A stretch of DNA of 37,959 nucleotides from Patescibacteria group bacterium. GTDB lineage: Bacteria > Patescibacteriota > Patescibacteriia > 2-12-FULL-57-11. The position numbers and the translations under genes were made by a program. The stretch spans positions 1-37,959 of the forward strand of contig JBBUJK010000025.1 in assembly GCA_038054875.1 (NCBI GenBank), written 5' to 3'. Each line of letters opens with the position of its first letter. Within the stretch, counting starts at the first letter, position 1. Under the pieces are notes generated by a model, which was not told where the DNA came from, did no database searches, and was given only the letters and a program-made list of their open reading frames with translations. Shown piece after piece: positions 6,086 to 35,119 of this stretch.

Positions 6086-7327
6086 ATGTTCCAGGACCGT
6101 CCTGTCCGCGTTGCAATCATCACTGCTGTCATCGTCTCCTTTTTTGTGGGGGGCGTGATGGGCGGCGCCACCGGGGCCATCGTGGCTTCACGCCCCGATT
6201 TCCTGGCCGGACCGCTTCTGGCGCGTCTGGGTGGTCGTTTGCCTGCACCACCAGAAAATCCAAAACTCACCGTCATCGAAGAGTCGGAAACCATTGCCGT
6301 GGTCGACAAGGTGAATCCGGCGGTCGTTTCCATTGTCATCAGCCGCAACGTGGCACAGCCAGGCGCGGACTTTCAGCCGTTCCCGTTCGACGACTTTTTT
6401 GGCACGTTACAACCGCCGTCGGCGCCGGATGTGCCAAGCACCGGCGAGCCGCAGATGCGCGTGGTGGGCGGCGGCTCCGGATTTCTCGTTTCTTCGGACG
6501 GCATGATTGTGACGAACAAGCACGTCGTGGATGGCACGGATGCGACGTATGAAGTCGTGCTTTCCGACGGTCGGAAGTTTCCCGGCAAAGTCCTGGCGCG
6601 TGATCCGCTCTTGGACCTGGCCATCGTCAAAATCGAGGGCACGGATTTTCCCACGCTCGCGCTCGGCGACTCGGATGCGCTTAAGGTCGGACAGACGGTT
6701 GTCGCGGTCGGCAACGCGTTCTCCGAGCTTGCGAACACCGTCACCAAAGGCATCATCTCCGGCATCAACCGGCGCATTGTGGCCGGCGGGATCGGGGGGA
6801 GCGAAGTGATCGAGGAAGCAATTCAGACAGACGCCGCCATCAATCCTGGTAATTCCGGTGGACCGCTCGTGAATCTGGCTGGAGAAGTCATCGGGGTCAA
6901 CGTCGCCGTGAACCGCGACGCGCAAGGCGTGGGCTTTGCCATCCCGATCAACGCCGCCAAAGACGTCATCACCTCGGTGCGCGAGAATGGTCGCATTGTT
7001 CGCCCTTGGATTGGCGTGCGCTACATCCTTATTACGCCCGAGTTCGTCAAAGCCAAGAATCTCACGGTCAACCACGGCGCGCTCGTGGTGCGCGGTGACA
7101 CGCCTACCGACCTCGCTGTTATTCCAGGCAGCCCGGCAGATACGGCCGGCATCAAAGAGAACGACATTATTTTGTCCGTCGACGGCAAGGACATCACCGA
7201 GGCGCATTCCTTGGCCGTGCGTATTCGCGGAAAAAAATCCGGCGATCAGGTAACACTCATCGTTTCTTCCCAAGGTAAAGAACGCCCGGTGGTATTGACC
7301 CTCGGCGAACTCAAGTCACAAGAATAA
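6086..7327 (+). CDS. htrA: HtrA/DegP-family serine protease with PDZ domain
   Basis: N-terminal TM; TNKHVV, DLAIVKI and AINPGNSGGPL give an intact triad; C-terminal PDZ. Confidence 0.93.
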   Translation: MFQDRPVRVAIITAVIVSFFVGGVMGGATGAIVASRPDFLAGPLLARLGGRLPAPPENPKLTVIEESETIAVVDKVNPAVVSIVISRNVAQPGADFQPFPFDDFFGTLQPPSAPDVPSTGEPQMRVVGGGSGFLVSSDGMIVTNKHVVDGTDATYEVVLSDGRKFPGKVLARDPLLDLAIVKIEGTDFPTLALGDSDALKVGQTVVAVGNAFSELANTVTKGIISGINRRIVAGGIGGSEVIEEAIQTDAAINPGNSGGPLVNLAGEVIGVNVAVNRDAQGVGFAIPINAAKDVITSVRENGRIVRPWIGVRYILITPEFVKAKNLTVNHGALVVRGDTPTDLAVIPGSPADTAGIKENDIILSVDGKDITEAHSLAVRIRGKKSGDQVTLIVSSQGKERPVVLTLGELKSQE

Positions 7328-7331
7328 GAAT

Positions 7332-7420
7332 GTCATCCTGAACGGCAGTGAAGGATCCTGCCAGTTCTTGCAAGAACCCTAATAAGACACGGAGAGATTC
7401 TTCGCTCCGCTCAGAATGAC
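7332..7420. repeat. Inverted doublet of GTCAT-tagged REP-like palindromes
   Basis: GTCATCCTGAACGGCAGTGAAGGATC (7332-7357) and, on the minus strand, GTCATTCTGAGCGGAGCGAAGAATC (7396-7420); 14-bp palindrome GTTCTTGCAAGAAC between them. Confidence 0.85.
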
Positions 7421-7429
7421 AATGCTCAT

Positions 7430-8887
7430 ATGAAACGCACCAAGATTGTTTGTACCATCGGCCCGGCCAGCAAAAAGCCGGCCATGCTCGAGAAGATGAT
7501 CAAGGCGGGCATGAACATGGCGCGGCTCAACTTCAGCCACGGCACGCACGCCGACCATGCGCGGCTGATGAAGCGCGTGCTGCAGGCCGCCAAAAAGGCG
7601 GGGACAACGGTCGCCATTCTCCAGGACCTCCAGGGTCCGAAGATCCGGGTGGGCGACTTGTCCAAGGAAGGCGTAAAGCTCGTGAACGGCAGCGAGGTGA
7701 TTTTTACGACGGCTTCTGTTCAAGGTCGCCCCTCGACGCGGCTCGGGGAATTGAGAATTCCGGTCGGCTACAAAAAGCTGCATCAGGATGTGAAGCCCGG
7801 TGATCGGCTGCTCTTGGACGACGGTCTGCTTGAAGTCATGGTCCAGAAGGTCAGCGGGCGCGATATTGTCTGCCATGTGGTGACCGGCGGCATGCTGACC
7901 TCGCACAAAGGCATGAACTTCCCCACGGCGACGCTGTCCATCCCTGCTCTGACCCCCAAAGACAAGGCCGACGTGGCCTTTGGCGTGCGCGCCGGCGTCG
8001 ACTACGTCGCGCTGTCCTTTGTGCGCTCGGCCAAGGACGTCATGCAGCTGCGTGCCCTGATCGCCAAGGAAGAAAAGAAGGCCCGCATCAAGCGCGACGC
8101 GCCGATCATGATCATTTCCAAGATCGAAAAGCCCCAGGCGCTCGATAACTTCGACGAAATTCTCGACGCCTCCGACGCCATCATGGTGGCGCGCGGCGAC
8201 CTGGGCGTTGAAACCCCGGCCGCGGACGTGCCGGTCCATCAGAAGCGCATGATCGAGAAGTGCCTGACGGCCGGAAAGCCCGTGATCGTGGCCACCCAGA
8301 TGCTCGACTCCATGATTAGGAATCCGCGCCCGACGCGCGCCGAAGTTTCGGATATCGCCAATGCCGTCATCGACCATACCGACGCCGTGATGCTGTCCGG
8401 CGAAACCGCCACCGGCGCCTTCCCGCTCCAGGCGGTGAAGATCATGGCCGAGACGGCCGAGGAAACCGAGAAGTCCCGCTACGACGACGTGCGCATCGAC
8501 ATCGTCGGCGTGGAGCCGACCGAGGCCCGGGAAGCGATCTCGAAGAGTGCCGCAGTCATGGCCCGCATGACGCCGGCCTGCGCGATTCTCTCCGTCTCCG
8601 TCTCCGGCCGCATGGGCCGCCGCCTCAGTCGCTTCCGCCCGGAAATCCCGATCGTGGTCGGCGCCTTCAGCCCCCGCGTCGCCCGGCAGCTGGCCCTCTC
8701 CTGGGGCGTGACGCCGATCCTGCTCACGCCAACCAAGGACGCGACCCGCGCCAAGAAGCAGCTTCTGAAAGAAGCCATGAAGCGCAAGCTCTGCAAAAAG
8801 GGGAATGACCTGTTGTTCGTGATGGGCTCGGTCGAGCGCGACGCCATGGGTCCGAACCGGTTGTCGCTGGAATTGTTCCGGGGGTAG
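7430..8887 (+). CDS. pyk: Pyruvate kinase
   Basis: RTKIVCTIGP, ARLNFSHG, DLQGPKIR, MVARGDLG, ATQMLDSM, MLSGETA. Confidence 0.98.
   Translation: MKRTKIVCTIGPASKKPAMLEKMIKAGMNMARLNFSHGTHADHARLMKRVLQAAKKAGTTVAILQDLQGPKIRVGDLSKEGVKLVNGSEVIFTTASVQGRPSTRLGELRIPVGYKKLHQDVKPGDRLLLDDGLLEVMVQKVSGRDIVCHVVTGGMLTSHKGMNFPTATLSIPALTPKDKADVAFGVRAGVDYVALSFVRSAKDVMQLRALIAKEEKKARIKRDAPIMIISKIEKPQALDNFDEILDASDAIMVARGDLGVETPAADVPVHQKRMIEKCLTAGKPVIVATQMLDSMIRNPRPTRAEVSDIANAVIDHTDAVMLSGETATGAFPLQAVKIMAETAEETEKSRYDDVRIDIVGVEPTEAREAISKSAAVMARMTPACAILSVSVSGRMGRRLSRFRPEIPIVVGAFSPRVARQLALSWGVTPILLTPTKDATRAKKQLLKEAMKRKLCKKGNDLLFVMGSVERDAMGPNRLSLELFRG
7728..7753. repeat. Intragenic palindromic element in pyk
   Basis: GCCCCTCGACGCG-GCTCGGGGAATTG, read as RPSTRLGEL; matches the ybeY element. 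Confidence 0.75.
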
Positions 8888-11861: not shown

Positions 11862-11936
11862 GGTCCGGTAGTGAAGCGGTTATCACGGTACCCTGTCACG
11901 GTACTATCACGAGTTCGAATCTCGTCCGGACCGCCA
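11862..11936 (+). tRNA. tRNA-Asp (GTC)
   Basis: Acceptor stem GGTCCGG/CCGGACC, anticodon arm GTACC-CTGTCAC-GGTAC, GTTCGAATC T-loop, encoded CCA. Confidence 0.97.
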
Positions 11937-22637: not shown

Positions 22638-23432
22638 ATGAAACGCTATGCCATTCTTGGGGGTGTCGGTTTTGTCGCGTTTGTCTTCTTGTTCATCATC
22701 TTCTGGCCGTTTGGGACGGTCGGCGCGGGGGAACGCGGCATCATGCTGCGCTGGGGCGCGGTGACGCACCGGGTCATCGACGAGGGGTTGTACCTGCGCA
22801 TTCCGCTCATGGAACGCATCGTCATCATGGACGTGAGGATCCAGAAGGAAGAGGTGGAGGCCACGGCCGCGTCCAAGGATTTGCAGACCGTGAATTCCAA
22901 AGTGGCGTTGAACTACCATCTCGACCCGACGCGCGTCACGAACATGTACCAGGAAGTCGGCCTCGAATACGACACCCGGTTGATTGACCCGGCGTTGCAG
23001 GAATCCGTGAAATCCACGACGGCCAAATACACGGCCGAGGAACTCATCACCAAGCGCGAGGAGGTGCGGGACGCGATCCGTGCGCATCTCGTGAGCAAGC
23101 TCGAGTCGCGCGGCATCCTGATCGACGATTTCAACATCGTGGACTTCCGGTTCTCCGACGCGTTCGACAACGCGATCGAGCTCAAGGTGACGGCGGAGCA
23201 GAGCGCCCTTGCCGCCAAGAACAAACTGGAACAGATCAAATTCGAAGCGGAGCAGCAGGTTGCCGAAGCGCGCGGGAAAGCCGAAGCGCTGCGCATCGAA
23301 TCTGCCGCGTTGCAGTCCAGCCCGCAGATCCTCCAGCTCCGGGCACTCGAGAAATGGGACGGGAAGCTGCCGTCCGTCATGGGGTCGCAGGCCACGCCGT
23401 TTATCGACGTCACCGGCATCATCCGCCGGTAG
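22638..23432 (+). CDS. Prohibitin/SPFH (band 7) family protein
   Basis: N-terminal TM; VGAGERG, SKDLQ, YTAEELITKR, IELKVTAEQ, KWDGKLP. Confidence 0.93.
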   Translation: MKRYAILGGVGFVAFVFLFIIFWPFGTVGAGERGIMLRWGAVTHRVIDEGLYLRIPLMERIVIMDVRIQKEEVEATAASKDLQTVNSKVALNYHLDPTRVTNMYQEVGLEYDTRLIDPALQESVKSTTAKYTAEELITKREEVRDAIRAHLVSKLESRGILIDDFNIVDFRFSDAFDNAIELKVTAEQSALAAKNKLEQIKFEAEQQVAEARGKAEALRIESAALQSSPQILQLRALEKWDGKLPSVMGSQATPFIDVTGIIRR

Positions 23433-23443
23433 TCACGTCCACG

Positions 23444-23473
23444 ACACGCTCCGCTCACCCCGGAGCGTGTTTG
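23444..23473 (+). repeat. 30-bp hairpin, copy 2 (terminator-like)
   Basis: Identical to 22573-22602. Confidence 0.9.
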
Positions 23474-23489
23474 TCATCGCGCGGCTACC

Positions 23490-23598
23490 GGATGATCGGG
23501 GATTTCTCACCCTGCGAGGGTTCGAAATGACAGGTGGGTGTGCCACGCGGCTCCTTTGGATGACAAGTGTTTGTCATCTCGAACGGTAGTGAGAGATC
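23490..23598. repeat. GTCAT-tagged palindrome cluster, left flank of the GIY-YIG gene
   Basis: 23490-23564 is an imperfect direct repeat of 23948-24020; an inverted unit GTCATCTCGAACGGTAGTGAGAGATC lies at 23573-23598. Confidence 0.88.
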
Positions 23599-23603
23599 TC
23601 CGA

Positions 23604-23903
23604 TCACCCAACAAGATCAGTCATATCAAGAAGTCCGGGATTGGTGGATCGGATTAAGGATAACTTCTTCTCTCTGCGATACCTCTTGATCTGTTTTTCC
23701 CGCTCAAGCGCATCGCGAACGTCGGTGAATTTCTCCACGTAGAGGAGATGCGTGCAGCCGTACCTTGCCGTAAAACCGCCTCGGTGTGCCGAGCGATGCT
23801 GATTAATTCGCCCTTGTAGATTTCCGGTGGCACCGACGTAGTAGGTCGTGCGCCGCGGGTTCGACAGGATGTACACCCAGTAGTTGCGGTCGTGCATACC
23901 CAT
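23604..23903 (-). CDS. Small stand-alone GIY-YIG nuclease
   Basis: YWVYIL...YYVGAT.NL..R..QH, FTARYG, A..REKQIK, LI...NP. Confidence 0.92.
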   Translation of the reverse strand: MGMHDRNYWVYILSNPRRTTYYVGATGNLQGRINQHRSAHRGGFTARYGCTHLLYVEKFTDVRDALEREKQIKRYRREKKLSLIRSTNPGLLDMTDLVG

Positions 23904-23947
23904 CTATCGTCCCACATCGGGGATGGGCACCTGTCAATGCTCCTGCT

Positions 23948-24020
23948 GGATGATCGGGGATTTCTCACCCCGCGGGGGTTCGAAATGACATGGCTTGGCC
24001 ATGCGGCTCCTTGGGATGAC
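23948..24020. repeat. GTCAT-tagged palindrome unit, right flank of the GIY-YIG gene
   Basis: First 43 nt match 23490-23532 with two mutually compensatory substitutions. Confidence 0.88.
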
Positions 24021-24072
24021 GAAAAAGCGGTATAGTGATTGCGATCTGGGCCATCGGCCCGTTATTTCGCCT

Positions 24073-26274
24073 ATGCGCACATTTATTTCTCGCCTCGCTC
24101 TGGCTGCTCTGGCCGTTTCGGCCATGGCGCCGCTCTCCGTCGCCGCCATCACCGACTCGACGCCGCCCGTGGTGTCCTCGGTCACGCCGACCACGACGTA
24201 CAAGAACCAAGCTACGACCTACGATGTAACGACGAGCGACGACATTGCCGGCGTCGACGGCTGCGATTTGTACGTGAACACCGTCAACCAGGGAGCCATG
24301 ACCATGACGTTGATCAGCGGCATGAACTGGAGGGCCACCCGTTCCTACACATACACGGGATCCGCAGGGACCATTTCCATCTACGCCCGCTGCCGCGACG
24401 GCGCCATGGTACCGAATTTCGCGAACGGTGCGACGACGAGCATCACCATCTTCGTGGACAACTCGCCGCCGGCGGTCTCGAACCTCCTGCCGGCCACGGC
24501 CACGGTCGGCGTGGCCACGACGATCAGCGCGTTTGCCATGGATGACGAATTCGGTTCCGGGATCAACACCTGCGGGGGAATTATCGATGGTGTAGAGTCC
24601 GGCCTCATGACCCCGTCGGGCTCGACCTACTCGCTCTCCGGCGTGACGTTTTCCACCGCCGGTTCGCATACCCTCCAGGTGAACTGTTTTGACCGGACCG
24701 GCAACCTGGGTACGGCATCGCGGACCGTGACGGTCTCTGCGCCCGCCGACACCACGGCGCCCGTCGTCAACCAGATCGATCAATCCACGGCCACGGCCGG
24801 AACCGCGCTCACGCTGACCGCCATTGCCATGGACAACGTCGGCATCAGCAGTTGCTCGCTTTATGTCGGCGGTGTTTCGCAAGGGACGATGGCCGTCTTG
24901 GGTGGGGTTGCTTCCCGCAGCCACACTTTTCCGGCAGCTGGAAGTTACGCTGCAGATGTTCGCTGCACAGATGCCGCCGGGAATCCGACGACTGGCGCAT
25001 CGCGCACCATTGTTGTCGCCGCTGCAGCTGATTCCACGCTCCCGACGGTTACAGGCGTTGGACCTACAACGGCTTCGACCGGCAGCGCCGTTACGCTGAC
25101 CGCGACGGTCGCTGACAACATCGGCGTCAGCAGCTGCACGCTCTACGTCGGCGGCACGTCGCAAGGCGCCATGACGGTCTCGTCCGGCGTCGCCAGCCGC
25201 AGTCACACCTTCGCGAGCGCAGGAAGTTCCTCAGTGGAAATTCGCTGCGTTGATGCTGCGGGGAATACGGGAACCGGCAGCGCAACGGTCACGGTCAGCG
25301 CGTCGCCTGCCACGGCGGACACCACGTTGCCGATCGTCGGCCAGGTCGCGCAGACCACGGCCACGGCCGGAACCGCGATCACGCTGACGGTCGCGGCCTC
25401 GGACAACATCGGCATTTCCTCCTGCACGCTCTACGTCGGTGGTGTCTCTCAGGGCACCATGGCCGTGTCCGGCGGGAGCGCCTCGCGTAGCCACACGTTC
25501 TCCTCATCTGGAAACATCGCCGTGGAAGTGCGCTGCACGGACGCGACGGGGAACATCGGCATCGGCGTTTCGCGCACCATTGTCGTGGCCGCAGCCGTGA
25601 CGCCGGTACCGCCCACGCCGGTTCCAATTTCCACGGGCGCGGATCTTGATACGGACGGCGATGACTTGTCCGACGCCGATGAGGCGGTCTACGGCACAAG
25701 TCCCACGAACCGCGACACCGATGGCGACGGATTTGCCGACGGCACGGAAGTGCGCAACGGCTACAATCCGTTGGGCGCGGGCCGCATCAGTCCGCCGACG
25801 ACATCCGCCGTACCCGGGCGCCTCATCAAGCTGGCGTGCCCGGCAGGCGCGAACGGCTATCATCCTTGCAAGGCCGTGTACTACTACGGCCGCGACGGCA
25901 AGCGGCATACATTCCCGAGCGCGCGCATCTACGCCACCTGGTTCAATGACTTTTCCACGGTGCAGGTGGTGGACGCTGCCTTCATGGCGTCGTTGTCCGT
26001 CGGCAAAAACGTCCTGCCACGGCCGGGCGTGCGGCTCGTGAAATTCGAGACCGTGAACACGGTGTATGCCGTGGACCGCGGCGGCATTCTGCGCGGCATC
26101 TCCAATGAGACGGTGGCCGCGGGAATCTATGGAAGCACTTGGAACACGAAGCTCGATGATGTCGTCGACACCCTGTTCGGCAACTTCCTGATCGGCACCG
26201 ACATCACATCGGCCTTGGACTACAGCCCGGCCACGGTCACCGCCGGCACGACGTCCATCGACGGGAACTTCTAG
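24073..26274 (+). CDS. Secreted surface protein: five Ig-like repeats, DxDxDG repeats, CPR-type C-terminal domain
   Basis: Signal peptide; five D(S/N/T)xxPxV-initiated repeats of about 95-100 aa, each with two Cys; DTDGDDLSD/DTDGDGFADG; GRLIKL..C...CKAVYYYGRDGKRH. Confidence 0.85.
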   Translation: MRTFISRLALAALAVSAMAPLSVAAITDSTPPVVSSVTPTTTYKNQATTYDVTTSDDIAGVDGCDLYVNTVNQGAMTMTLISGMNWRATRSYTYTGSAGTISIYARCRDGAMVPNFANGATTSITIFVDNSPPAVSNLLPATATVGVATTISAFAMDDEFGSGINTCGGIIDGVESGLMTPSGSTYSLSGVTFSTAGSHTLQVNCFDRTGNLGTASRTVTVSAPADTTAPVVNQIDQSTATAGTALTLTAIAMDNVGISSCSLYVGGVSQGTMAVLGGVASRSHTFPAAGSYAADVRCTDAAGNPTTGASRTIVVAAAADSTLPTVTGVGPTTASTGSAVTLTATVADNIGVSSCTLYVGGTSQGAMTVSSGVASRSHTFASAGSSSVEIRCVDAAGNTGTGSATVTVSASPATADTTLPIVGQVAQTTATAGTAITLTVAASDNIGISSCTLYVGGVSQGTMAVSGGSASRSHTFSSSGNIAVEVRCTDATGNIGIGVSRTIVVAAAVTPVPPTPVPISTGADLDTDGDDLSDADEAVYGTSPTNRDTDGDGFADGTEVRNGYNPLGAGRISPPTTSAVPGRLIKLACPAGANGYHPCKAVYYYGRDGKRHTFPSARIYATWFNDFSTVQVVDAAFMASLSVGKNVLPRPGVRLVKFETVNTVYAVDRGGILRGISNETVAAGIYGSTWNTKLDDVVDTLFGNFLIGTDITSALDYSPATVTAGTTSIDGNF

Positions 26275-30173: not shown

Positions 30174-30218
30174 GCACGTGTACATCTTCATCTGGGATCA
30201 TCTTCTGATGATCACAAG

Positions 30219-30598
30219 TGGAGATGGTGGGATTTGAACCCACGTCTAGAACTCAGGACCGCGGATGCTCTACGCGCGTAGAACGCTTTGAGAGTCCGGC
30301 GAGCGGTCAAAAGCGTCCAAAAGACGCTCGCCGCAAGCCCCGTGGATCTGACGGCTGCGTCGGGGCCGACGCAGACGCGAGCCTGTAGATGACGTCCGGA
30401 TCCGCTCCGACAGGCGCGGAGCGGGGGACGGTCAGGTCGTTTTTAGGCGACTGACGGGACCAGGCTCGGAACGCGCAATGCGTTCGTCACCTTGGTGAGT
30501 GCGTTGGCACTTCAGAGGTTCCACGGATTGGGACGCGGGTGCCGTGGATCGCGGCGCGCACATCCGGCGGATGAATCCTATCGAATCCAGACATCCCC
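30219..30598 (-). ncRNA. ssrA: tmRNA
   Basis: 5' GGGGATG...GGATTCGA; 3' GTGGGTTCAAATCCCACCATCTCCA with G3-U acceptor pair; predicted tag ORF 30508-30443 ANALTKVTNALRVPSLVPSVA*; directly downstream of smpB. Confidence 0.95.
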
Positions 30599-35096: not shown

Positions 35097-35119
35097 GCCC
35101 TTCGACTACCGCTCAGGGC
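35097..35119. repeat. Single GA/GA-type palindrome
   Basis: Minus strand GCCCT-GA-GCGGTAGTC-GA-AGGGC; same architecture as the 7332 and 23573 units and the intragenic copies. Confidence 0.65.

What the first reader, a model, noticed from the sequence alone, without database searches (positions are those of the whole stretch)
23473..24020. GIY-YIG nuclease flanked by structured GTCAT-tagged repeats: candidate REP-mobilising system without a RAYT
Seen: a 99-aa stand-alone GIY-YIG gene lies between ~75-bp direct repeats (23490-23564 and 23948-24020). Their first 43 nt differ only by a compensatory pair (CCCT-GCG-AGGG versus CCCC-GCG-GGGG), and an inverted unit abuts the stop codon. Unit consensus: GTCAT-stem-GA-inner hairpin-GA-stem. 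Related units occur at 7332-7420, 35097-35119 and inside ybeY and pyk. Known: this layout (enzyme flanked by its palindromes, copies dispersed) is the hallmark of RAYT/REP systems, which use HUH enzymes; some GIY-YIG proteins such as Slx1 are structure-specific nucleases. Inference: this nuclease recognises and spreads the hairpins, or the repeat-gene-repeat unit is itself mobile. Similar tagged repeat families have been catalogued, but I know of no demonstrated mechanism.
Basis: partly seen in the sequence, partly recalled or inferred. Interest (0 to 1): 0.88.

Follow-up and report, generated by a model that had tools for sequence, protein, structure and literature searches.

The report
Small nuclease gene nested in hairpin repeats
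A 99-residue GIY-YIG nuclease gene sits between two inverted copies of a small DNA hairpin that is also scattered, without the gene, through this and many other bacterial genomes, which suggests an undescribed kind of mobile or self-propagating DNA element.

Summary
The gene (23604-23903, minus strand) lies inside one unit bounded by inverted hairpin arms, tags outward (23573-23597 and 23960-23989).

- **Genome census:** 32 arms in the 889-kb genome. They form 3 gene-bearing units and about 12 gene-less, MITE-like units. Similarity between copies stops at TGTCAT and ATGACA.
- **Homologues:** in 80 loci from 16 named phyla, an arm lies upstream in 59, an inverted arm downstream in 54, and both in 45. 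Shuffled flanks give about 2.
- **Hairpin:** 98% of cells pair and 5 of 7 pairs show compensatory changes. The apex is often the GCGNAGC DNA mini-hairpin motif.
- **Tracking:** in 301 genomes of the phylum, hairpin abundance follows this GIY-YIG clade (49 of 85 against 15 of 216). It does not follow Y1/RAYT transposases (34 of 130 against 30 of 171).
- **Prior description:** no Rfam family and no paper found in ten searches.

Mobility and cleavage are inferred. No empty site was found. My best reading (0.45) is a hairpin-ended element served by a minimal Slx1-like nuclease.

The parts
23604..23903 (-). GIY-YIG nuclease gene, 99 aa, catalytic domain only
   Evidence: ORF. Pfam PF01541 E 1.6e-16. 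Invariant Y11, Y22, R32, H36, E69, N88 across 62 sequences. AlphaFold model pLDDT 87.3. Best fold matches are UPF0213 BH0048, Slx1 and UvrC.
23960..23989 (-). Upstream (5') arm of the gene-bearing unit: GTCAT, stem ATTTC/GAAAT, GA, inner hairpin CCCC-GCG-GGGG, GA
   Evidence: The DNA fold gives exactly this structure (-6.2 kcal/mol, z -1.99).
23573..23597 (+). Downstream (3') arm of the gene-bearing unit, inverted relative to the gene; it starts a few bases after the stop codon
   Evidence: (E 3.3e-5). The same fold is predicted, but the energy is not better than shuffles (z -0.03).
23990..24020 (-). Outer extension of the upstream arm, ending in a second GTCAT tag; it resembles the 5' half of the arm at G000:C45:11937
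   Evidence: Repeat D3 and sequence comparison. That it is a remnant or nested arm is inference.
23473..23564 (+). Gene-less tandem unit: degenerate left arm, one canonical arm (23502-23531, minus strand) and the same outer extension (23532-23564). It reads as a copy of the gene-bearing unit that lost about 23582-23942.
   Evidence: Repeats D5, D1 and D3, canonical arm, side-by-side print. The deletion origin is inference.
23444..23470 (+). Terminator-like hairpin of the upstream Band-7/SPFH gene; not part of the element. The first unit begins 3 nt after it.
   Evidence: Inverted repeat I6 and terminator scan 23452-23467.
7332..7420 (.). Gene-less 89-nt unit of the same family (arms 7332-7356 plus strand and 7397-7420 minus strand), in the 102-nt gap between two long ORFs
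   Evidence: (E 8e-10 and 4e-8).

Best explanation
The locus holds one copy of a compact, hairpin-ended genetic element. It has two inverted arms with their GTCAT tags outward (full border TGTCAT...ATGACA) and, between them, a gene for a minimal Slx1-like GIY-YIG nuclease.

Each arm is a small hairpin on the strand that starts with GTCAT. It has a 5-bp stem AT-NNN/NNN-AT, tandem G-A mismatches, and an inner hairpin that is often the very stable GCGNAGC or GCGNNAGC DNA mini-hairpin.

Gene-less hairpin pairs of 61-101 nt, scattered in short intergenic gaps, are non-autonomous derivatives that lost the gene.

Proposed mechanism, all of it inferred. The arms fold in single-stranded or cruciform DNA. 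The nuclease, which has no separate DNA-binding domain, recognises the folded arm by shape plus the tag. It nicks at or near the tag of its own unit and of gene-less units. Host repair or replication then copies or moves the unit. This is the role that HUH Y1 enzymes play for REP and IS200/IS605 elements, here taken by a different nuclease fold.

Shown: the anatomy, the hairpin covariation, the gene-hairpin association across phyla, the sharp borders, and independence from Y1 transposases. Inferred: binding, cleavage, and movement.
For: 1. **Nesting.** Three of the four close paralogues found by tblastn lie between inverted arms. A fifth small GIY-YIG gene on C11 was not examined.
2. **Generality.** In 80 homologue loci, an arm lies within 200 nt upstream on the sense strand in 59 and an inverted arm downstream in 54, with both in 45. 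Shuffled flanks give 2.0-2.5 of 80. Distal windows give 7 and 8 of 146. The 77 usable loci come from 16 named phyla.
3. **Matching arms.** The stem triplet is the same in both arms in 22 of 45 loci, against 6.6 by permutation (maximum 15 in 2000). Where the triplets differ, each arm is still self-complementary, though this was required by the arm-finding rule.
4. **Hairpin, tested without demanding pairing.** All 22 distinct 25-nt pattern hits have 3 of 3 Watson-Crick triplet pairs, against 5.4 with shuffled partners. On alignment A3, 98.2% of cells pair, 5 of 7 pairs change on both sides, and the covariation score is 0.578 against 0.260 (0 of 500 shuffles). Slid registers pair at most 54%.
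5. **DNA-type apex.** RCGN(1-2)AGY occurs in 25 of 31 own-genome arms and in 51 of 113 arms beside homologues, against 6.6 in shuffles. GCGNAGC and GCGNNAGC are the 'extraordinarily stable mini-hairpin DNA' motifs (PMC13037366, abstract start seen).
6. **Sharp borders.** The C32 and C5 gene-bearing units (78% identical) and 10 gene-less units align from TGTCAT to ATGACA, with unrelated flanks.
7. **Gene-less units look like deletion derivatives.** Their core keeps the bases just inside the 5' arm and the last codons plus stop of the ORF.
8. **Abundance tracks the gene.** At least 5 hairpins occur in 49 of 85 genomes with the clade and in 15 of 216 without it. For Y1_Tnp the figures are 34 of 130 and 30 of 171. 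Twenty-two genomes with 10 or more hairpins have no Y1 match.
9. **Likely active, structure-specific fold.** The catalytic-type residues are invariant. The nearest characterised folds are Slx1 chains solved with branched DNA.
Against: - No movement was seen. Two congeners and three family members gave no precise empty or filled pair, because the intergenic regions have diverged completely.
- Copies are old: the best gene-less pair is 94% identical, the median is 74%, and the gene-bearing pair is 78%.
- No target-site duplication is visible in 10 units (by eye).
- The correlation is imperfect. Twenty-one of 85 clade-positive genomes have none of the pyrimidine-triplet hairpins that the pattern covers. 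Fifteen of 216 clade-negative genomes have 5 or more, including G034 with 22 and no GIY-YIG match (87% complete) and G102 with 59.
- Related genomes are not independent, so the p-values overstate the case.
- The correlation would equally arise if the gene merely needs hairpins as landing sites.
- Nearest-neighbour DNA folding predicts the expected hairpin, but its energy beats shuffles only weakly: z ranges from -2.5 to +0.3 over 9 folds, and only 2 are near -2 or below.
- The protein is only a catalytic domain, so sequence-specific recognition is unexplained.
- The fourth paralogue (C39) sits between direct, not inverted, repeats of another family.
Confidence: 0.45

Rival explanations
1. Homing-type parasite of the repeats. 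The hairpin pairs spread or persist by some other route. The GIY-YIG gene is a free-standing homing-endonuclease-like gene that cuts gene-less pairs near their centre. It is then copied in by repair from a gene-bearing unit, with the arms serving as homology.
For: The gene always lies at the centre of a pair, and gene-less pairs have the same borders. GIY-YIG is a classical homing-endonuclease fold (established knowledge). The genome-level correlation fits equally well if hairpins are landing sites. Fifteen of 216 genomes have many hairpins without the clade.
Against: The arms offer only about 25-40 nt of homology. The protein lacks the DNA-binding modules of known free-standing GIY-YIG homing enzymes (99 aa, single domain). 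None was found in 50,697 phage records, where such genes are typical. Nothing else in the 80%-complete genome is known to spread the hairpins, and there is no Y1 match. Gene-less cores retain the ORF's last codons, which is easier to explain by deletion.
Confidence: 0.22
2. Domesticated partnership, similar to RAYT and REP. The hairpins serve the host, for example as terminators, mRNA stabilisers or structural sites. The nuclease is kept to maintain or process them and is not selfish.
For: All own-genome units sit in tight intergenic gaps, often 2-15 nt after a stop codon. The family is ancient and very widespread. Copies are old.
Against: There are several diverged gene copies per genome: 3 nested copies here, and up to 15 matches in other genomes at a threshold that also admits other small GIY-YIG genes. 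Three of 80 homologues carry in-frame stops, as do 7 of the 150 matches listed. Presence is patchy even within families and genera. Units are absent from the same loci in congeners. These are traits of selfish elements.
Confidence: 0.15
3. RNA-level elements. The arms are 5' and 3' UTR structures that regulate or stabilise the nuclease mRNA, and the gene-less pairs are terminators. No DNA transaction is involved.
For: The upstream arm is on the sense strand in 59 of 80 loci. Hairpin pairs after stop codons could terminate transcription.
Against: The downstream arm is inverted, so on the mRNA it would carry UC/UC where the upstream arm has the conserved GA/GA mismatches. Forward and reverse copies are nearly equal in every genome, for example 39/36, 50/49 and 73/67. 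The apex is a DNA-specific stable motif. No Rfam family matches. Borders are shared between gene-bearing and gene-less copies.
Confidence: 0.06

Closest known systems
REP elements and their RAYT (REP-associated tyrosine transposase) genes
   Same: One small enzyme gene is flanked by inverted copies of a short tagged hairpin. The same hairpin is scattered through intergenic DNA, mostly as inverted pairs (REPIN-like), and no target duplication is visible.
   Different: The enzyme has a GIY-YIG fold, not a Y1 HUH fold: no PF01797 match in the genome, and the hairpins do not track PF01797. The tag is GTCAT, whereas I recall GTAG for REP. The stem holds tandem G-A mismatches and a GNA-type mini-hairpin. 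There are several diverged gene copies per genome. The family spans at least 16 phyla.
IS200/IS605 family (single-strand 'peel and paste' elements)
   Same: Ends are defined by small DNA hairpins rather than by long inverted repeats read as duplex. There is no target-site duplication. A single-strand mechanism is plausible.
   Different: There is no TnpA or Y1 gene. Here the two end hairpins are on opposite strands (a true inverted pair), whereas I recall IS200/IS605 end hairpins lying on one strand.
Free-standing GIY-YIG homing endonuclease genes (Seg proteins of T4, I-TevI type)
   Same: The catalytic fold is GIY-YIG, the gene is selfish and embedded in a specific sequence context, and decayed copies occur.
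   Different: No DNA-binding domain: 99 aa against about 200-250 aa (recalled). The context is a dispersed hairpin pair, not a conserved host gene. None was found in 50,697 phage records. NCBIfam TIGR01453 scores only 23-25 bits against a cut-off of 56.
Slx1 structure-specific nuclease and the bacterial 'standalone Slx1-like' / UPF0213 proteins (BH0048 1ZG2, EF2693 1YWL)
   Same: These are the nearest sequences and folds. Dunin-Horkawicz et al. 2006 call the prokaryotic standalone forms the minimal GIY-YIG variant (PMC1564403, passages read). Slx1 cuts branched DNA, according to the titles of the matched PDB entries.
   Different: No RING or zinc-finger domain and no Slx4 partner. UPF0213 proteins have no assigned function. 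The UPF0213-like paralogues score far weaker (E 1e-9 to 1e-26) than the hairpin-linked clade (E 1e-31 or better).
MITEs (miniature inverted-repeat transposable elements)
   Same: Short gene-less units share their ends with a longer gene-bearing unit and keep fragments of its interior.
   Different: No target-site duplication was seen. The putative parent encodes a nuclease, not a DDE transposase.

Membership tests
GIY-YIG nuclease superfamily | Match to the curated family profile above its cut-off | tested here: met
   PF01541, 60.8 bits against a cut-off of 22.6, E 1.6e-16.
GIY-YIG nuclease superfamily | Conserved catalytic-type residues (two Tyr, Arg, His, Glu, Asn) | tested here: met
   Y11, Y22, R32, H36, E69 and N88 are invariant in 62 sequences. 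Mapping them to catalytic roles is recalled from I-TevI and UvrC work and was not tested.
GIY-YIG nuclease superfamily | Three-stranded sheet plus helices fold | tested here: met
   Model pLDDT 87.3, pTM 0.80. Foldseek: 1zg2 E 4.3e-4; Slx1 chains E 6.5e-3 to 4.6e-2 with TM about 0.57; UvrC 1yd6 E 0.48.
REP/RAYT system | Enzyme is a Y1 HUH transposase homologue | tested here: not met
   No PF01797 match in G000, which is 79.7% complete. The flanked gene is GIY-YIG.
REP/RAYT system | Enzyme gene flanked by inverted copies of the dispersed palindrome | tested here: met
   (45 of 80 homologue loci have both arms).
REP/RAYT system | Repeat abundance tied to the enzyme gene | tested here: met
   Tied to the GIY-YIG clade (49 of 85 against 15 of 216), not to Y1 (34 of 130 against 30 of 171). 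Related genomes are not independent.
IS200/IS605 | TnpA (Y1) gene and subterminal hairpins on one strand | tested here: not met
   No Y1 match. The arms are on opposite strands.
MITE / DDE-type inverted-repeat transposon | Terminal inverted repeats plus target-site duplication | tested here: not met
   Inverted ends are present, but no duplication flanks 10 aligned units (by eye). No search for DDE transposases was made.
Free-standing GIY-YIG homing endonuclease | Catalytic domain joined to a DNA-binding domain; match to the group I intron endonuclease model | tested here: not met
   A single 99-aa domain. TIGR01453 scores 23.5 and 24.7 bits against a cut-off of 56.05 for two paralogues, and nothing for the window protein.
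Mobile genetic element (any) | Presence/absence polymorphism at a defined site, or near-identical copies at different sites | tested here: inconclusive
   Units are absent from the same loci in congeners, but the spacers are not alignable. The best copy pair is 94% identical. No joint skipping the unit was listed in public contigs.
Any Rfam RNA family | Covariance-model match | tested here: not met
   Nothing at the locus at the gathering threshold or at E<=10 beyond three chance-level hits. No matches in 20 homologue loci.

The most novel reading that the evidence does not exclude
This is a new class of prokaryotic mobile element. Its only protein is a roughly 95-residue Slx1-like GIY-YIG nuclease, and its ends are extraordinarily stable DNA mini-hairpins (GTCAT tag, tandem G-A mismatches, GNA loop). 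The nuclease reads DNA shape rather than sequence, which would explain how a bare catalytic domain can serve elements whose stem triplets differ from lineage to lineage. The element and its gene-less derivatives would then be the source of many of the GTCAT-tagged palindromes found in intergenic DNA of bacteria from at least 16 phyla.
Probability: 0.4. Interest if true: 0.92.

Novelty: new variant of a known kind. Interest (0 to 1): 0.82.

Why it matters
Short tagged palindromes fill intergenic DNA in many bacteria. A propagating enzyme is known only for the REP/RAYT and IS200/IS605 types, both of which use HUH enzymes.

Here a different and much smaller nuclease fold is linked to a different hairpin by anatomy, by covariation and by genome-level statistics. 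The link holds in 16 named phyla, including the tiny genomes of uncultured groundwater bacteria.

If the nuclease acts on the hairpins, three things follow:
- A nuclease family would be added to the short list of enzymes that drive DNA transposition in prokaryotes.
- A large 'GIY-YIG nuclease family protein' / UPF0213-like group that has solved structures but no function would get a role.
- Biology would have a use for the GCGNAGC mini-hairpin, so far mainly a biophysical curiosity.

A 95-residue structure-specific nickase with a defined 25-nt DNA hairpin substrate would also be a handy reagent. The question is directly testable with oligonucleotides and one small protein.

Tried and rejected
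**Empty sites.**
- A DNA search of 30 relatives with window 22700-24700, followed by reading the matches, found the Band-7 gene in congener G001 and the Ig-repeat gene in congener G002. Their neighbours differ, so no empty site can be defined.
- The dnaK-dnaJ spacer (genes named by eye) holds the C32 unit in G000. It is about 165 nt of unrelated sequence in G001, about 80 nt in G003, and 1.4 kb with two other ORFs in G002.
- The uvrB-uvrA spacer (genes named by eye) holds an orthologous unit in G002 and is about 205 nt in G005.
- Result: the spacers are variable, but there is no clean junction.

**Public reads.** Runs X2, X3, X5 and X6 are all Logan contigs. They showed no listed joint that skips 23573-23989, and one X3 contig covers 23517-24095 without change. 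Contigs drop rare variants, so this says nothing either way.

**Energies.** DNA folds of single arms give the expected structure, but the z-scores are unremarkable. The standard model may not credit sheared G-A pairs and GNA loops; that is my assumption.

**Alignment A2.** MAFFT left-aligned arms of unequal length, so I did not use it for structure counts or for a covariance model. I used a fixed-length class instead. No covariance model was built.

**Co-phylogeny.** Hairpin triplets change 32 times on the protein tree, against 45.3 +/- 1.9 when shuffled. Host phylum clusters as well (31 against 48.7), so this is not independent evidence of co-evolution.

**Promoter scan.** No promoter-like site was found at 23350-24150.

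**Vectors.** The protein matches 32 of 72,556 plasmid records, mostly large non-mobilizable replicons, and 0 of 50,697 phage records.

**Literature.** Ten searches found no paper linking GIY-YIG genes to these repeats. 'GIY-YIG transposase' gave 0 papers. Six arm motifs searched as text gave only primer-like hits. Subscription journals and supplementary files were not searchable, so a description there cannot be excluded.

**Rejected idea.** The 75-nt direct repeats are not a target duplication or the borders of a mobile 'repeat-gene-repeat' module. They are homologous arms of two tandem units.
Full report
**What is at the coordinates**

The window is contig C25 of an 889,201-base, 45-contig assembly with 60% G+C, estimated 79.7% complete. 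Runs that hold the stretch are labelled groundwater metagenome.

The minus-strand ORF 23604-23903 encodes 99 residues and matches Pfam GIY-YIG (PF01541, E 1.6e-16, 60.8 bits, cut-off 22.6). Upstream on the plus strand lies a Band-7/SPFH gene (22638-23432) with a terminator-like hairpin (23444-23470). Downstream lies a 759-residue Ig/PKD-repeat protein gene (23995-26274).

The pairs are 23485-23532 with 23943-23990 (48 nt, 92%) and 23535-23564 with 23991-24020 (30 nt, 83%). By blastn they are 88% identical over 75 nt. A 23-mer from them occurs twice, with none expected by chance. The two copies of the inner stem differ by one compensatory pair.

**The anatomy is different from what was proposed**

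The 75-nt repeat occurs nowhere else in the genome. Reading the locus in the gene's orientation, beside the three close paralogues found by tblastn (C32, C5, C39), shows the real unit.
- Upstream of the gene is a hairpin arm that starts with GTCAT (window 23989 down to 23960).
- Just after the stop codon is the same kind of arm, inverted (23573-23597).
- The tags therefore face outward, and the full border reads TGTCAT...ATGACA.
- The C32 and C5 paralogues are built the same way. By eye, they lie between dnaK and dnaJ and between uvrB and uvrA.

One is the gene-bearing unit 23573-24020. The other is the gene-less unit 23473-23564. The gene-less unit shares the first 15 nt (repeat D5) and the last 78 nt (D1, D3) with its neighbour. 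It looks like a copy that lost about 23582-23942 (the deletion is inference).

**Census in the own genome**

An nhmmer profile of 31 arms finds 32 arms at E<=0.01, and the next hit is at E 0.25. They make up:
- 3 gene-bearing units;
- 10 complete gene-less units of 61-101 nt of one subfamily;
- one unit of another subfamily (C45:11863-11937);
- the degenerate tandem unit in the window;
- two truncated units and one single arm on C29.

The window holds five canonical arms, including the unit at 7332-7420.

Aligned with their flanks, the C32 and C5 gene-bearing units are 78% identical. Their similarity begins at TGTCAT and ends at ATGACA, and the same holds for the gene-less units. I saw no target duplication. 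The core of the 89-nt units retains the bases just inside the 5' arm and the last codons with the stop of the nuclease ORF, as expected of deletion derivatives. Every unit lies in a short intergenic gap, often 2-15 nt behind a stop codon.

**The arm is a hairpin**

I selected arms by a fixed-length pattern that demands no complementarity (GTCAT, 3 free bases, GA, 7 free bases, GA, 3 free bases, ATC). The 80 homologue loci give 30 hits and 22 distinct sequences.
- All 22 have three Watson-Crick pairs between the two free triplets. With shuffled partners the mean is 5.4 and the maximum 13.
- On alignment A3 (these 22 plus three window arms), 98.2% of cells pair.
- Five of 7 pairs change on both sides.
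- The covariation score is 0.578 against 0.260 +/- 0.028, reached by 0 of 500 shuffles.
- Slid registers pair at most 54%.

The two GA dinucleotides face each other as mismatches on the strand that starts with GTCAT; on the other strand they would be TC/TC.

The apex is RCGNAGY in 14 of the 22. RCGN(1-2)AGY occurs in 25 of 31 own-genome arms and in 51 of 113 arms next to homologues, against 6.6 in shuffles. GCGNAGC and GCGNNAGC are the 'extraordinarily stable mini-hairpin DNA' motifs (PMC13037366; I saw only the abstract start in the listing). Together with the asymmetric GA/GA mismatches, this points to folded single-stranded or cruciform DNA rather than a duplex binding site or an RNA.

One result points the other way. 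The standard DNA energy model predicts the expected fold, but its energy is hardly better than shuffles, with z from -2.5 to +0.3 over nine folds.

**Generality**

A profile of 13 proteins found 583 relatives in one-genome-per-species contigs, and the best 80 were kept. I searched within 200 nt of each gene with a hairpin rule: GTCAT, a triplet, 8-60 nt, the complementary triplet, AT.

| Position and orientation | Loci or windows with an arm |
|---|---|
| Upstream, sense strand | 59 of 80 |
| Downstream, inverted | 54 of 80 |
| Both | 45 of 80 |
| Upstream, opposite orientation | 21 of 80 |
| Downstream, opposite orientation | 25 of 80 |
| Shuffled flanks | 2.0-2.5 of 80 |
| Distal 200-nt windows | 7 and 8 of 146 |

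I attribute the opposite orientations to neighbouring gene-less units.

The 77 loci with intact reading frames come from 16 named phyla. The stem triplet differs between loci (12 types) but is the same in both arms of a locus in 22 of 45, against 6.6 by permutation. Three of the 80 genes carry an in-frame stop, as do 7 of the 150 matches listed.

In a cultured alphaproteobacterium, Novosphingobium aromaticivorans DSM 12444 (plasmid pNL2), a homologue is flanked by an inverted hairpin of quite different sequence. The nesting principle may therefore be wider than the GTCAT tag.

**Which enzyme do the hairpins follow?**

In 301 genomes of the phylum, the pattern for pyrimidine-triplet arms hits 109 genomes, with up to 140 hits in about 1.5 Mb. 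Forward and reverse counts are nearly equal. The pattern read backwards gives 0 or 1 per genome.

The protein profile gives a bimodal best E-value. It is 1e-31 or better in 85 genomes (the clade) and 1e-9 to 1e-26 in 121 others, which hold other small GIY-YIG genes.

| Gene | Genomes with the gene that have 5 or more hairpins | Genomes without it that have 5 or more hairpins | Odds ratio | Spearman |
|---|---|---|---|---|
| GIY-YIG clade | 49 of 85 | 15 of 216 | 18 | 0.57 |
| Y1_Tnp (PF01797) | 34 of 130 | 30 of 171 | 1.7 | 0.11 |

Within clade-positive genomes, Y1 makes no difference (24 of 42 against 25 of 43), and 22 genomes with 10 or more hairpins have no Y1 match.

The exceptions are real:
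- 21 clade-positive genomes have no such hairpins, although the pattern does not cover other tag types;
- G034 has 22 hairpins and no GIY-YIG match;
- G102 has 59, G242 has 31, G183 has 27 and G142 has 24, each with only weaker GIY-YIG matches.

Related genomes are not independent, so the p-values overstate the case.

**The protein**

Y11, Y22, R32, H36, E69 and N88 are invariant in 62 sequences. The model is confident (pLDDT 87.3, pTM 0.80).

By sequence, the only solved relatives are two UPF0213 proteins of unknown function, 1zg2 and 1ywl. By fold, 1zg2 comes first, then nine Slx1 chains (E 6.5e-3 to 4.6e-2, TM about 0.57), among them complexes with flap and branched DNA, then UvrC. NCBIfam has no model that reaches its cut-off.

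The 2006 survey of the superfamily describes prokaryotic standalone Slx1-like proteins as the minimal form of the domain. In the passages I searched it does not mention palindromes, and the only 'repeat' hits concern ankyrin repeats (PMC1564403).

**What it most likely is**

I read the unit as a hairpin-ended element with a minimal structure-specific nuclease, and the gene-less pairs as its non-autonomous derivatives.

Shown here: the nesting, the hairpin, the borders, the cross-phylum association, and independence from Y1 enzymes. Inferred: that the protein binds and nicks the folded arms, and that this moves or copies units.

The main rival is homing of the gene into pre-existing hairpin pairs. 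It explains the central position and the correlation equally well, but it leaves the spread of the pairs unexplained. A domesticated, host-serving role and an RNA-level role fit fewer observations.

**What is missing**

No empty site, recent copy or excision product was found.

No Rfam family matches the arms. Ten literature searches found no description. Subscription journals and supplementary files could not be searched.

Noticed in passing
window 35097-35119; G000:C39:4950-5600; six GTCCC-type copies genome-wide: Other hairpin families share the stem-GA-inner-GA-stem plan without the GTCAT tag (stems GCCCT/AGGGC, GTCCC/GGGAC, CCCC/GGGG). The most divergent small GIY-YIG paralogue (C39, 38.6% identity to the window protein) lies between direct repeats built from such hairpins.
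   Followed up: partly
L109 (Novosphingobium aromaticivorans DSM 12444 pNL2) 540-960 and 378-1030: A homologue in a cultured bacterium is flanked by an inverted hairpin of a different sequence type (no GTCAT, no GA mismatches). Farther out there is a direct repeat of about 40 nt on both sides.
   Followed up: no
G002:C2:176540-177990, between dnaK and dnaJ (genes named by eye): The same spacer that holds a GIY-YIG unit in G000 holds about 1.4 kb with two unrelated ORFs in a congener. To my eye that insert is AT-richer than its surroundings. In two other relatives the spacer is short unrelated sequence, so it looks like an insertion hot spot.
   Followed up: partly
window 7151-7801: Summed contig depth in three of the four public runs laid (X2, X3, X5) is about 10- to 50-fold higher over the bin that holds the 89-nt gene-less unit than over most other bins. 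This fits a repeat shared by many genomes in those samples.
   Followed up: no
window 30216-30598 (-) and 11862-11933 (+): tmRNA (126 bits) and one tRNA are the only Rfam matches in the window.
   Followed up: no
G000:C29:58042-58130: A truncated unit whose outer left arm is replaced by a G+C-rich hairpin next to a run of A, which looks like a terminator. This hints that units sit at or next to terminators.
   Followed up: no
G069:C4:26676-26843 and similar places listed: The smallest units consist of two arms that overlap by the central GATC, about 67 nt in all, and can stand in tandem.
   Followed up: no
window 23995-26274 (+): A 759-residue protein with repeated Ig-like domains (Big_7, PKD) and a bacterial TSP3 repeat. 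A terminator-like hairpin at 24047-24061 lies inside the longest reading frame, so the true start is probably later.
   Followed up: no
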